Assembly: GCA_048940925.1 (NCBI GenBank)
Contig: JBHLOC010000043.1
Span: forward strand, 1 to 40,533
DNA length: 40,533 nucleotides
Origin: Promethearchaeota archaeon
GTDB lineage: Archaea; Asgardarchaeota; Lokiarchaeia; Sigyniarchaeales; SOKP01
Direction: 5' to 3'
Every line of letters begins with the position of its first letter. Position 1 is the first letter of the stretch. The translations under genes and the position numbers were made by a program. The notes below the pieces were generated by a model. It saw nothing but the letters and a program-made list of their open reading frames with translations. It had not been told where the DNA came from and searched no databases. Shown here piece by piece: positions 25,831 through 28,113 of this stretch.

Positions 25831-28113
25831 TTACGTGCGTTTATAAATAAAACGATCCCAGCTTTTTCTGTTCGGCAGTTCTAAAGGCATTTCCTTTCTT
25901 TTACGTATTTCTATTATTAAATCTTCTTCTAAAGAGGGAGGAACACGAGAAAAACCTTCAAATTCATATCCGAAAAAGGCACGGCCCTGAGTTGAACCTC
26001 TTATATCATCAGCAAGCCCAATAGTTTCAGCAGCAGGAATTTGACCTTGGATTCGTACATATTCACCTTCAGGGATGACATTAGTAATTCTACCTCTTCG
26101 TTTAGTTATGGTAGCAGTTACACTCCCTTCCGTGCCTTGCGGTGATTTTATGTCAATTCGTTGGATTGGTTCATAAAGGTGAGGATCTGCATCCAGCATC
26201 GCTAAGGACATAGCTGAGAAGATCATTCCTGCAATCTGCCCATATTGTGTATGTCGAGGGTCTTCATGTACTACAAGATCTGTAAATACAATTTTAAATC
26301 CAGTAGCAGGCTCTTTTGCTATAATACAATTACCAAGCCAATCCCTAAACGCTGCTGACATATAAGATTTAACTCTATCAAATCTTTGTAACCCAGCTGC
26401 TCCATTTACAAGCACACTTCCATGATATACATCCACCACACGTCTGGCTTCTTTTGCATCCCATCCCGCTTCTTCTCTAAGAATCATTGCTCTTTCCTTT
26501 TCATTTTGTAAATCATTAACTTTACCGATATTTATTAAATGTTCAGTAGTTTCATCTAATGGTTCAACATATAAGAGGATTCGATTGTGTGTATTCGCTG
26601 ATTTGGTATGATATTCTGGACTTCTTCGAGTGATTTTTTCTCTATAAATAATTATAGGTTCTCCTATTTTAATTTGAACTTGATTATTAATTCGTTTAGT
26701 AAGGATTTCTATTTGGAGAGGATCGATACCACTTAATATGAATTCACCGGATTCATCATCTCTTCGATATTCTGCTTCTGGATTTGCCTTAAGCCATTTT
26801 CCTACAACTTCATCTAATTTATCAATTTCATGGGGATCAGTGGGTTTGATACTTCGTGATACTACTGCCTCACAGGCATATTGAATTTTTTCGAAAGGAT
26901 GTAACAATTTCTTTTCTTCTTTATCCTTAGGGACCTCATTAGTCAACATAAATGTTTCACCAGCAGGGCAAACAAATCCAAATAATGCAAATAGATTTCC
27001 TGCAGGTATCTTAGGAATATCTAAAATATCAGTTATCTCCATTACTCCAAGTCTCTTCACTCGATTGCTTGAATCACTATTAATTAAATAAATAGAATCA
27101 GTTTGATCAAAAGTGCCTGAAAAAACACGACCTATAAGGGTAGCTTGGTAATTTCTTTTAGGATCCAAAAAGATCTTAGTAATCATCCCATAAAGTGGTC
27201 CATTTGGGTCGCTCTTCTGCAAAGATTGCCCAATTTCTGAGTTTAAATCACCACCCCAGATATGAGGGATTCTATATTTAGAAGCACTCACTGGATCTGG
27301 AAGATGGTCAACAATCATTCTTAACATAGGTTCATCTAATGGGAGATTATCTCTTAACCATTGAACATCTCCTTCATCATATTTTTCAAAAACATCTTGA
27401 GGTTTTAAATCCTTTTCAAGCAAGATCTCATATGTAAAACCCCATCCATGTTTTGCTGAACCCACGGCTACAGAATTTTTTGCAAAATCAATTCCCCAAT
27501 CCGATCCTTCGGGTCGCACCTTTTTTATAAGATCGTTTACTTCCCGTGTTATTTTATCTATTTTAGCAAAGGTATCCTGAGGGCTAAGTTTTAATTCACT
27601 TATTAATCTATCAACTTTATTAATGAACAAAACAGGTTTACACAATTCTTCTCCTACCGCTAAACGAATATTTGTTTCAGTTTGTGTCATTACTCCCTCG
27701 AGAGCGTCAACTAATATGATAGCACCGTCGCTTCCCCTAAGTGCTCTAGAAACTTCCCCTGTAAAGCTTATGTGACCAGGAGTGTCATTAAGTTGAATTA
27801 TATAGGGTTCATCATCTTCCGGGTGTCTAGGATCTTTAAATGCAAGAAGAACTACACTCGTGAATATAGTGATGCCGCGCTCCTGTTCCTCATCATTCAG
27901 TAGATTAAGGAAAACTTAATCTAAATCTGAATCAGTCATTTGGAGCTGACCAGCATCCTCAGGTCGCATTAGTCCCGCTCTACGAAGAAGGTAATCTGTA
28001 GCTGTGGTTTTTCCATGGTCGATGTGGGCTGTGATTGAAAACAAGCGCTTTTTTTCATAGGAACCGGTAGTTACCAGCTTAGCTATTTCTTCAGCATTTT
28101 TTACTTTAACCAT
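25831..28113 (-). CDS. fusA: Elongation factor 2 family GTPase (probably the aEF-2 paralog); join of exon 1 (27925..28113) and exon 2 (25831..27894), 750 aa after splicing
   Basis: Exon 1 carries G1 AHIDHGKTT. The same frame continues past a single TAA with EEQERGITI, DTPGHISFTGEVSRALRGSDGAIILVDALEGVMTQTE, NKVD, GSAKHGW, HLPDP, KSANTHNR, HEDPRH, EPIQ, IRKRK. The two ORF-track entries are parts of one gene. Confidence 0.93.
27895..27924 (-). other. 30-nt bulge-helix-bulge (archaeal tRNA-type) intron in the EF-2 coding sequence
   Basis: Minus strand reads UCAG[AU^U]UAGAUUAAG-UUUUC-CUUAAUCUA-CUGA[AU^G]AUGAG. It has a 4-bp central helix UCAG/CUGA, two 3-nt bulges and a perfect 9-bp intron stem, and contains an in-frame UAA. 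Excision restores the conserved motif spacing. Confidence 0.87.

What the first reader, a model, noticed from the sequence alone, without database searches (positions are those of the whole stretch)
27895..27924. Candidate tRNA-type (bulge-helix-bulge) intron in the mRNA of an EF-2 family gene
Seen: the gene reads ...M T D S D [L D * V F L N L L N] D E E Q E R G I T I..., a 30-nt in-frame insert with a UAA stop inside switch I. The RNA folds as UCAG[AUU]UAGAUUAAG(UUUUC)CUUAAUCUA CUGA[AUG]: a perfect 9-bp stem, a 4-bp central helix, and a 3-nt bulge on each strand. Established: the archaeal splicing endonuclease EndA cuts BHB motifs after the second nucleotide of each bulge and RtcB ligates; EF-2/EF-G have D-x4-EQERGITI spacing (e.g. 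DWMEQEQERGITI). Applying the cut rule (AU^U and AU^G) removes exactly 27924..27895 and gives D-SDDE-EQERGITI and an intact 750-aa protein. Structure and protein conservation therefore predict the same junction independently. Inference: this translation factor needs EndA/RtcB-type mRNA splicing to be expressed. The well-characterised archaeal mRNA intron I know of is in crenarchaeal cbf5; I know of none in an Asgard EF-2, but this needs a literature check. It would parallel eukaryotic non-spliceosomal HAC1/XBP1 splicing, in the lineage closest to eukaryotes.
Basis: partly seen in the sequence, partly recalled or inferred. Interest (0 to 1): 0.96.

Follow-up and report, generated by a model that had tools for sequence, protein, structure and literature searches.

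The report
tRNA-type mini-intron in Asgard EF-2 paralog
A second-copy elongation-factor gene of an Asgard (Promethearchaeota) archaeon is interrupted by a conserved 30-base hairpin shaped like an archaeal tRNA intron, so its mRNA almost certainly has to be cut and rejoined by the tRNA-splicing enzymes, something the papers I could search confirm for only one archaeal protein gene (cbf5).

Summary
Window 27895-27924 (minus strand) is a 30-nt insert with an in-frame UAA, just upstream of the RGITI motif of an EF-2 paralog. The canonical EF-2 lies on another contig.

The insert sits at the identical site in 12 species-level genomes of one Promethearchaeota genus and in 10 metagenome contigs. About 30 sister genomes read TDSD|DEEQERGITI, exactly the junction that the bulge-helix-bulge (BHB) cut rule predicts.

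- **Host gene:** under strong purifying selection (dN/dS 0.02-0.09, dS near saturation).
- **Insert:** far more conserved than neutral sites (21 of 30 columns invariant, against 0.6% of four-fold sites).
- **Structure:** the 4-bp central helix pairs in all 21 sequences. The 9-bp intron hairpin shows two compensatory pairs.
- **Exons:** synonymous sites are frozen only at the exon bases that pair.
- **Machinery:** the genome has a catalytic EndA subunit, a second non-catalytic EndA paralogue and RtcB.

My own genome scan found at least four more 30-31-nt inserts of the same shape that split single protein domains. One relative has a second intron of the same design in the same gene.

No RNA data were available, so splicing itself is inferred. 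Pseudogene and assembly artefact are rejected.

This scan has already reported the same phenomenon on other DNA, including this genome. I found no publication of it.

The parts
27925..28113 (-). Exon 1 of the EF-2 paralog (63 codons, M...MTDSD), containing the P-loop AHIDHGKT
   Evidence: GTP_EFTU profile positions 3-37. It is intact in all intron-bearing relatives whose contig reaches it.
27895..27924 (-). 30-nt BHB-type mini-intron, with predicted cuts between 27925|27924 and 27895|27894
   Evidence: It is absent at exactly these borders in about 30 orthologues, and 21 of 30 columns are invariant among 12 species.
25831..27894 (-). Exon 2 (687 codons plus stop), DEEQERGITI... through domains II-V. 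The domain IV loop reads HEDPRHTQYGQ.
   Evidence: aEF-2 TIGR00490 scores 560 bits, below the 738 cut-off. dN/dS is 0.02-0.09.
27927..27930 (-). H5: exon half of the 4-bp central helix (UCAG)
   Evidence: pairs with H3 in 21 of 21 sequences. The Ser codon is frozen as UCA only in intron-bearing alleles.
27924..27926 (-). 5' bulge A-U^U (two exon bases plus the first intron base)
   Evidence: predicted unpaired in both the single-sequence and the alignment fold. The third base is U or A in relatives.
27915..27923 (-). h' 5' arm UAGAUUAAG, which contains the in-frame UAA (27916-27918)
27910..27914 (-). Hairpin loop UUUUC, the most variable part of the intron
27901..27909 (-). h' 3' arm CUUAAUCUA
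   Evidence: 93.7% of cells paired, G-C to A-U three times, U-A to A-U twice, and four pairs with wobble changes.
27897..27900 (-). H3: intron half of the central helix (CUGA)
   Evidence: 100% paired, with one A-to-G change that keeps a U-G pair.
27894..27896 (-). 3' bulge A-U^G (AAG in 19 of the other 20 sequences, UAG in one)
   Evidence: In the window alone these AU bases can instead pair with 27931-27932.
27942..27946 (-). GCUCC, the 5' strand of a distal exon-exon helix
   Evidence: Predicted by RNAalifold. Synonymous sites of codons -8 to -6 are frozen only in intron-bearing alleles.
27879..27889 (-). 3' partner of the distal helix. GGAAC (27885-27889) is the consensus register and gives 4 of 5 pairs in the window. 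GGAGC (27879-27883) is a shifted perfect match.
   Evidence: The helix is not universal: one metagenome contig (mg091) lacks it.

Best explanation
The 30 nt at 27895-27924 are an archaeal bulge-helix-bulge (tRNA-type) intron inside the coding sequence of an EF-2 paralog.

Proposed mechanism:
1. The pre-mRNA folds so that four exon bases (UCAG) pair with four intron bases (CUGA).
2. This helix is flanked by a 3-nt bulge on each strand and closed by a 9-bp intron hairpin.
3. A GC-rich exon-exon helix further out probably helps hold the two exons together.
4. The two-subunit EndA endonuclease cuts after the second base of each bulge.
5. RtcB joins the exons, giving ...TDSD-DEEQERGITI... and a 750-aa GTPase. 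The intron is released, probably as a circle.
6. Unspliced mRNA ends at the conserved in-frame UAA after 65 codons, so no factor with a 10-residue insert in switch I can be made.

Shown here: the anatomy, the conservation, the exact junction, selection on the pairing bases, the presence of the enzymes, and the recurrence of the design in other genes.

Inferred: cleavage and ligation in the cell, circularisation, and any regulatory use.
For: 1. **Junction.** 12 species-level genomes carry a 30-nt insert at the identical site. About 30 others of the same genus and order read TCAGAT|GAYGAR with nothing between. In 11 of the 12 the borders are unambiguous and equal the BHB cut sites.
2. **Not a pseudogene.** All 12 have intact 687-codon second exons. 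Pairwise dN/dS is 0.02-0.09 at dS 0.4 to above 2.
3. **The insert is constrained.** 21 of 30 columns are invariant, against 0.6% of four-fold degenerate sites in the same genes. Mean diversity is 0.11 against 0.49.
4. **Structure.** In 21 sequences the central helix is paired in 100% of cells and h' in 93.7%. Two pairs show compensatory changes and four more (three in h', one in H) change through G-U wobble. None of 500 shuffles reaches the observed covariation score. Slid controls pair in 24-46% of cells. RNAalifold recovers H, the 5' bulge, h' and a distal exon helix.
5. **Exon constraint.** Synonymous sites are frozen in intron-bearing alleles only at codons -8 to -6, -3 to -1, +1 and +2, which are the pairing bases. 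Codon -4, codon 0 and all more distant codons vary freely. The same sites vary in intron-less alleles.
6. **Retargeting.** A second 30-nt insert in the P-loop of the same gene in genome G018 has the same 1+9+5+9+4+2 layout. Its H3 (GCGU) is complementary to the new local exon (GCGC).
7. **Generality.** A genome-wide scan found the same design splitting single Pfam domains in a Ras-like GTPase and methylmalonyl-CoA mutase. It also splits a thymidine-phosphorylase-like gene and Elp3.
8. **Machinery.** The genome encodes an EndA catalytic subunit closest to the crenarchaeal alpha chains, a second EndA paralogue without the Tyr/His catalytic residues, and RtcB. ARAGORN calls introns in 22 of 34 tRNAs. 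PMC5829648 reports that Asgard archaea have the (alpha-beta)2 EndA with the L1 loop that allows relaxed motifs.
9. **DNA reality.** Contigs from three further studies bridge the insert with no gap or joint.
Against: - There is no RNA evidence for this locus, because no RNA run was listed.
- The outer helix next to the bulges is only 1-2 bp.
- The window's own lowest-energy fold absorbs the 3' bulge into a 6-bp helix. Its stability is not unusual against shuffles (z = -1.72).
- Covariation is modest. Most pairs never vary, and mismatches accumulate at the two middle pairs of the hairpin.
- One strain variant (27921 C>G in run X11) would give a C-C mismatch.
- The structure tested was derived from these same sequences, which favours it in the slid controls.
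- Intron-bearing genes are scattered in the gene tree. The conservation of the insert could therefore be partly due to recent lateral spread rather than long constraint, although the freely varying flanking sites argue against that.
Confidence: 0.85

Rival explanations
1. Recent pseudogene: a small palindromic DNA insertion has inactivated a dispensable EF-2 paralog.
For: The insert carries an in-frame UAA. A canonical EF-2 exists elsewhere in the genome, so loss might be tolerated. The distribution among species is patchy.
Against: 12 species keep the insert and perfectly open exons. dN/dS is 0.02-0.09 while synonymous sites are near saturation. The insert is far more conserved than neutral sites. 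There are no secondary lesions in any copy.
Confidence: 0.03
2. Programmed translational bypassing (as in T4 gene 60 or the yeast mitochondrial byp elements): the ribosome takes off at the GAU before the hairpin and lands on the GAU/GAC after it, without any RNA processing.
For: Matching Asp codons flank the insert. A stop codon and a hairpin follow the take-off site closely.
Against: - Hopping would give a protein one Asp shorter than all intron-less orthologues, whereas the BHB cut reproduces them exactly.
- The second insert in G018 has no matching landing codon that would keep the AHIDHGKT P-loop.
- The intron bases complementary to the upstream exon (CUGA here, GCGU there) and the frozen exon bases are explained by a BHB, not by hopping.
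- Similar inserts elsewhere in the genome include 31-nt ones and sit in all three codon phases.
- Bypassing is not known in archaea (my own knowledge).
Confidence: 0.04
3. Assembly or binning artefact: the 30 nt are not in the organism's DNA.
For: The genome is a metagenome-assembled draft of 90 contigs with 8.4% estimated contamination.
Against: The same insert is present in 12 independently assembled genomes, including a closed chromosome (CP070805.1). It is also in 10 metagenome contigs and in contigs of three other studies that bridge it without gaps or joints.
Confidence: 0.01
4. A BHB-like element is cut by EndA but not religated efficiently. Under this reading it acts mainly as an mRNA-destabilising or translation-gating switch that keeps the paralog off, rather than as a constitutive intron.
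For: - All copies keep an early stop.
- The window sequence can slip between a BHB register and a 6-bp helix without the 3' bulge.
- The cbf5 authors also discussed a down-regulation role (PMC2738675).
Against: Strong purifying selection on the whole 750-codon frame requires that full-length protein is made. Many housekeeping genes in the genome carry the same kind of insert.
Confidence: 0.07

Closest known systems
BHB intron in the cbf5 (pseudouridine synthase) pre-mRNA of Crenarchaeota (Watanabe 2002; Yoshinari 2006; Yokobori 2009, PMC2738675)
   Same: - Both are short introns inside a coding sequence with an unconventional (relaxed) BHB.
- Cuts are predicted between the second and third base of each bulge.
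- The host has a hetero-oligomeric EndA.
- Presence among related species is patchy, with inferred precise losses.
- Annotation pipelines miss both.
   Different: - The phylum differs (Asgard/Promethearchaeota).
- The gene differs (EF-2 paralog, between the P-loop and the G2 motif).
- This intron has a fixed 30-nt size with a conserved in-frame stop.
- It is one of many such introns in the same genome rather than a single case.
- The cbf5 intron has cDNA and in-vitro cleavage evidence; this one has none.
Non-canonical tRNA introns of Asgard archaea and Thermoproteales (Marck and Grosjean 2003; bioRxiv 10.64898/2026.10.13.758758)
   Same: The motif grammar is the same: four exon bases pair with intron bases upstream of the 3' bulge, with 3-nt bulges and an h' hairpin. 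The size range is similar and the enzymes are the same. This genome's tRNA genes are also intron-rich.
   Different: The host RNA is an mRNA, so the exon half of the motif has to be written in codons. Here that is visible as frozen synonymous sites. The 2026 preprint covers tRNA genes only and does not mention mRNA.
HAC1/XBP1 unconventional cytoplasmic mRNA splicing in eukaryotes (Ire1 plus tRNA ligase or RtcB)
   Same: It is non-spliceosomal. Endonuclease cuts at paired stem-loop sites in an mRNA are followed by tRNA-ligase or RtcB joining, and the small intron changes the reading frame or its outcome.
   Different: The nuclease (Ire1) and its recognition motif are unrelated to EndA and the BHB. 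HAC1/XBP1 splicing is stress-regulated, and no regulation is shown here. This is an analogy of logic, not membership (my own knowledge).
BHB element in a 5' UTR of a Haloferax volcanii mRNA (Schwarz et al. 2020, PMC7714728)
   Same: It is a BHB substrate of the splicing endonuclease in an mRNA of an archaeon outside the Crenarchaeota.
   Different: It lies in an untranslated region, not in the coding sequence.

Membership tests
Archaeal BHB (EndA/RtcB-spliced) intron | [quoted passage not shown] | tested here: met
   UCAG/CUGA is paired in 21 of 21 sequences, with one U-A to U-G change.
Archaeal BHB (EndA/RtcB-spliced) intron | Two 3-nt bulges on opposite strands, where cutting after the second base of each reproduces the true exon junction | tested here: met
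   The cuts AU^U and AA^G (AU^G in the window) remove exactly the 30 nt that about 30 intron-less orthologues lack. The 3' bulge can be partly absorbed in the window's own lowest-energy fold.
Archaeal BHB (EndA/RtcB-spliced) intron | At least one flanking helix of 2 or more pairs (h from exon, or h' from intron) | tested here: met
   h' is 9 bp with 93.7% of cells paired and two compensatory pairs. The adjacent h is only 1-2 bp. A distal 5-bp exon helix is present in most copies but not all. The class is therefore HBh'.
Archaeal BHB (EndA/RtcB-spliced) intron | The host encodes a splicing endonuclease able to cut relaxed motifs, and an RtcB ligase | tested here: met
   There are two PF01974 genes. 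The 198-aa product has Tyr/His/Lys and matches crenarchaeal alpha chains 3p1z_B and 3ajv_B. The 200-aa paralogue lacks the Tyr and His. One RtcB gene is present. [quoted passage not shown]
Archaeal BHB (EndA/RtcB-spliced) intron | Spliced junction or circular intron seen in RNA, or cleavage by EndA in vitro | not testable with these tools
   No RNA run was listed for this DNA, and the laid runs were DNA contigs.
Archaeal EF-2 paralog (second EF-2 family protein of Asgard archaea; Narrowe et al. 2018, PMC6143161) | Five-domain EF-2 architecture, distinct from the genome's bona fide EF-2, with an altered diphthamide loop | tested here: met
   GTP_EFTU, EF-G_D2, EFG_III, EFG_IV and EFG_C all match. 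aEF-2 scores 560 bits, below the 738 cut-off. A second copy with 33% identity lies on contig C86. The loop reads HEDPRHTQYGQ, with the His kept and Arg-Gly replaced.
Programmed translational bypass element | Matched take-off and landing codons whose use gives the conserved protein | tested here: not met
   Asp codons match at this site, but hopping would drop one conserved Asp. The second insert in G018 has no landing codon that preserves AHIDHGKT.
Pseudogene | Relaxed selection or secondary lesions | tested here: not met
   dN/dS is 0.02-0.09. There are no frameshifts or stops outside the insert in the 12 copies.

The most novel reading that the evidence does not exclude
The 30-nt introns are a proliferating family that spreads at the RNA level, by reverse splicing or retargeting, within and between protein genes of Asgard archaea.

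Under this reading, the second EF-2p intron in genome G018 is a copy of the first. Its hairpin and loop are 19 of 23 bases identical to the window's. Its four 'guide' bases have been rewritten to pair with a new exon site. That would make these archaea a living model of intron gain, loss and exon-encoded splice signals in the closest relatives of eukaryotes.
Probability: 0.2. Interest if true: 0.9.

Novelty: new member of a known kind. Interest (0 to 1): 0.7.

Why it matters
In the papers I could search, endonuclease-type splicing of an archaeal coding sequence is confirmed only for cbf5 in Crenarchaeota. Here a translation GTPase of an Asgard archaeon carries such an intron, kept for a long time, alongside several other protein genes in the same genome.

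If RNA data confirm it, three things follow:
- **Annotation:** gene callers systematically mis-annotate these genomes. This gene is called as 65-aa and 619-aa fragments.
- **Enzyme role:** the tRNA-splicing machinery has a routine role in mRNA maturation in the lineage closest to eukaryotes.
- **Codon choice:** coding sequences there carry a second layer of selection, visible as synonymous sites frozen to form the splice motif.

It also offers a tractable system for studying intron gain and precise loss, given 12 intron-bearing species against about 30 intron-less ones in one genus. Only small RNAs and two or three recombinant proteins would be needed.

Tried and rejected
- **RNA evidence.** No RNA holder was listed for the gene. 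The four runs laid were DNA contigs and showed no insert-less joint.
- **Single-sequence folding.** It was not decisive. For the window, z = -1.72 and the fold has a 6-bp register without the 3' bulge. For the second intron in G018, z = -1.03.
- **tRNA check.** ARAGORN finds no tRNA in the window, so the element is not part of a tRNA gene.
- **Gene tree.** The careful search did not finish in the time allowed. I used the quick tree, so the number of gains and losses (at least 5 changes forced by well-supported branches) is rough.
- **Lateral spread by recombination.** I considered recent transfer of the intron with flanking DNA. It does not fit, because codons -4 and 0 and everything beyond codon -9 or +3 are as variable among intron-bearing alleles as elsewhere.
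- **Distal GCUCC/GGAGC helix.** It is not universal. It is shifted in the window and in mg090, and absent in mg091, so I do not treat it as a defining part.
- **Genome-wide BHB scan.** It gave 118 unique hits, and most are adjacent genes joined by chance. I count only those with Pfam continuity. The C30 (AIR-synthase-like) candidate has no Pfam match for exon 1, and I did not test the C77 thiolase-like candidate.
- **Conserved stop.** The scan required an interrupted frame, so the fact that all its 30-nt hits contain stops is not evidence for a 'fail-safe stop'.
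Full report
**1. What is in the sequence**

On the minus strand an ATG at 28113 opens a frame that reads MVKVK...AHIDHGKTT...MTDSD. 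It then runs into LD*VFLNLLN and continues in the same frame with DEEQERGITI... for 687 codons to a stop at 25831. The interrupting 30 nt are 27924 down to 27895, and the UAA is at 27918-27916.

The two halves match consecutive parts of the GTP_EFTU domain: profile 3-37 for the first and profile 49 onward for the second. The second half also carries EF-G domains II, III, IV and C.

The best NCBIfam model is aEF-2, at 560 bits, below its 738-bit equivalog cut-off. The genome has a second EF-2 family gene on contig C86, only 33% identical. The domain IV loop reads HEDPRHTQYGQ. This is therefore the divergent second EF-2 family protein described for Asgard archaea (PMC6143161, which mentions no intron in it). 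Close relatives are deposited as Promethearchaeota/Promethearchaeia MAGs.

**2. The fold**

The RNA reads UCAG-AUU-UAGAUUAAG-UUUUC-CUUAAUCUA-CUGA-AUG.

The order is central-helix strand in the exon, then a 3-nt bulge, the intron hairpin h', the central-helix strand in the intron, and a second 3-nt bulge. This is the order defined for archaeal BHB motifs. I confirmed that definition against the methods of a 2026 preprint on Asgard tRNA introns.

The outer exon helix next to the bulges is only U-A plus A-U, so the motif is of the relaxed HBh' class. In the window's own sequence the minimum-energy fold prefers a 6-bp AUUCAG/CUGAAU helix with only the 5' bulge. Its energy is unremarkable against shuffles (z = -1.72). 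The single sequence alone therefore gives a suggestive fold, not a proof.

**3. Comparative evidence**

A search of 60 related genomes found the orthologue in nearly all of them. Reading the DNA shows two groups:
- 12 species-level genomes of the same genus carry a 30-nt insert at exactly this site, always with the UAA.
- About 30 others read ...ACNGAYTCNGAT|GAYGARGAR..., that is TDSD|DEEQERGITI, with nothing in between.

In 11 of the 12 intron-bearing genomes the borders are unambiguous. In the window an AU repeat allows a 2-nt slide. In every case the borders coincide with cuts after the second base of each bulge.

A pattern scan of metagenome contigs added 10 more copies. Contigs from three further studies bridge the insert in DNA with no gap and no insert-less joint. 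One of the 12 genomes is a closed chromosome. An assembly artefact is excluded.

**4. Selection**

All 12 intron-bearing genes keep a 687-codon second exon. Exon 1 is intact wherever the contig reaches it. Pairwise dN/dS is 0.02-0.09, with dS from 0.4 to above 2. The gene has therefore been under strong purifying selection for as long as the insert has been there.

The insert is much more conserved than neutral sites. 21 of 30 columns are invariant among the 12 species, against 0.6% of 154 four-fold degenerate sites in the same genes. Mean diversity is 0.11 against 0.49. A pseudogene is excluded.

**5. Structure support**

I tested a 21-sequence alignment with the structure written in advance.
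- The central helix is paired in 100% of cells, with one U-A to U-G change.
- h' is paired in 93.7% of cells.
- Two pairs show compensatory changes: G-C to A-U three times, and U-A to A-U twice.
- Four further pairs (three in h', one in the central helix) change through G-U wobble.
- None of 500 column shuffles reaches the observed covariation score or the number of double changes.
- With one strand slid by 1-3 columns, only 24-46% of cells pair.

There are limits. Most pairs never vary. Mismatches collect at the two middle pairs of the hairpin. The structure was derived from these same sequences.

RNAalifold independently predicts the central helix, the 5' bulge, h' and a distal exon-exon helix GCUCC/GGAGC.

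**6. Exon constraint**

This is the most telling result. Among intron-bearing alleles the synonymous third positions are invariant at:
- codons -8 to -6 (CAG CUC CAA);
- codons -3 to -1 (GAU UCA GAU);
- codon +1, and nearly so at +2 (GAG GAG).

Codon -4, codon 0 and everything further out vary as freely as elsewhere (diversity 0.5-0.7). In intron-less alleles the same sites vary.

The frozen bases are those of the central helix, the bulge and the distal helix. This is what selection on an RNA structure written into codons predicts. It is not what a recent transfer of the intron with flanking DNA would leave, because that would give a continuous tract of identity.

**7. The design recurs**

In genome G018 the same gene has a second 30-nt insert inside the P-loop (AH|...|IDHGKT). 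It has the same layout: 1 + 9 + 5 + 9 + 4 + 2 bases. Its hairpin and loop are 19 of 23 bases identical to the window's intron. Its four bases before the 3' bulge are GCGU, complementary to the new upstream exon GCGC rather than to UCAG. The part of the intron that must pair with the exon has therefore changed to fit the new site.

In the window's own genome, I scanned for this geometry combined with the requirement that only the spliced frame is open on both sides. The scan returned the EF-2p site and further 30-31-nt inserts. The two halves match consecutive parts of one Pfam domain, or of one known domain order, in four genes:
- a Ras-like GTPase (WDIAGQ|PQF; Ras profile 1-58 and 60-157);
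- methylmalonyl-CoA mutase (profile 2-54 and 58-512);
- a thymidine-phosphorylase-like gene (DKHS|TGG);
- Elp3 (GHKVD|KIELIIMGGTF).

The mutase intron folds into a strong full hBHBh' (z = -5.2).

**8. Machinery**

The genome encodes two EndA-family proteins and one RtcB.
- The 198-aa protein has the Tyr/His/Lys catalytic residues. It is closest to the catalytic chains of the Aeropyrum and Sulfolobus enzymes.
- The 200-aa paralogue lacks the Tyr and His. This fits a two-subunit enzyme.

PMC5829648 reports that Asgard archaea have the (alpha-beta)2 type with the loop that confers broad, relaxed-motif specificity. ARAGORN calls introns in 22 of its 34 tRNA predictions.

**9. History**

In a quick maximum-likelihood tree of the protein, the 12 intron-bearing genes are scattered. 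Well-supported branches force at least five changes of state. Together with the saturated flanks, this reads best as an old intron lost precisely several times, as proposed for cbf5 (PMC2738675). The tree is only partly resolved and is a gene tree, so repeated gain is not excluded.

**10. Rivals**

- **Translational hopping.** A hop from GAU to the downstream Asp codon would give a protein one Asp short of all orthologues. It cannot explain the second insert in G018, the exon-complementary intron bases or the frozen exon sites.
- **Gating or decay role.** A mainly regulatory role for the element is possible on top of splicing. It cannot be the whole story, given selection on the full frame.

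**11. Literature and earlier notes**

Full-text searches found no report of a BHB intron in an Asgard protein-coding gene. The 2009 cbf5 paper states that no other archaeal pre-mRNA splicing was confirmed. A 2025 EndA structure paper cites only the cbf5 work for mRNA. The October 2026 preprint on Asgard tRNA introns does not treat mRNA.

Within this scan, however, the phenomenon has been noted many times:
- in this same genome, for aIF2-gamma, purA, mvk, elp3 and rpoN;
- in relatives' copies of this EF-2 paralog;
- in other Asgard classes, in some cases reportedly with RNA contigs lacking the intron.

I did not check those claims.

**12. Verdict**

It is a new member of a known kind (the cbf5-type mRNA BHB intron) in a new phylum and gene, and part of what looks like a genome-wide habit.

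Noticed in passing
L003:3664-3735 (minus strand; genome G018, closest relative): A second 30-nt insert lies in the same EF-2 paralog, inside the P-loop (SITAH|...|IDHGKT). It has the same 1+9+5+9+4+2 layout and the same UUUUC loop. Its H3 (GCGU) matches the local exon GCGC, and an outer exon helix UCCAU/AUGGA forms. It is absent from the sister genome (L074), so it is probably a recent gain.
   Followed up: partly
G000 contigs: C78:59767-59796(-), C71:54629-54659(+), C64:13177-13206(-), C40:183124-183154(-); also C77:31160-31189(-), C30:66095-66124(+): Further 30-31-nt BHB-shaped inserts split protein genes of the same genome. The first four (Ras-like GTPase, methylmalonyl-CoA mutase, thymidine-phosphorylase-like, Elp3) are confirmed by Pfam continuity. 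The thiolase-like and AIR-synthase-like candidates are not confirmed.
   Followed up: partly
G000 C62:7927-7991 (minus strand), locus L087: The RNA polymerase subunit A' gene is interrupted right after the GHFGH motif by about 65 nt containing two hairpins, and the frame resumes at IKLARPVIHVGY. This may be two adjacent mini-introns or one composite intron.
   Followed up: partly
window 27942-27946 with 27879-27889: Synonymous sites of codons -8 to -6 and +1 to +2 are frozen only in intron-bearing alleles, forming a GCUCC/GGAGC exon-exon helix. The 3' partner sits 6 nt further downstream in the window and in one metagenome contig, and is missing in another.
   Followed up: yes
window 27921: A strain variant in run X11 (C>G on the plus strand, one contig at depth about 5.6) would turn the third pair of the intron hairpin into a C-C mismatch. 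The same pair is the one that shows G-C to A-U and G-A in other species.
   Followed up: no
G000 C63:72116-72144 (+): A leucyl-tRNA synthetase fragment (AGAVMAVPAHDQRDFEFA...) starts right after a BHB-like hit, but the upstream frame looks non-coding. The gene may be interrupted in some other way.
   Followed up: no
It is not in the usual S12-S7-EF-2 ribosomal cluster. In another genome of the genus, a note reports that the neighbouring GTPase also carries a mini-intron.
   Followed up: no
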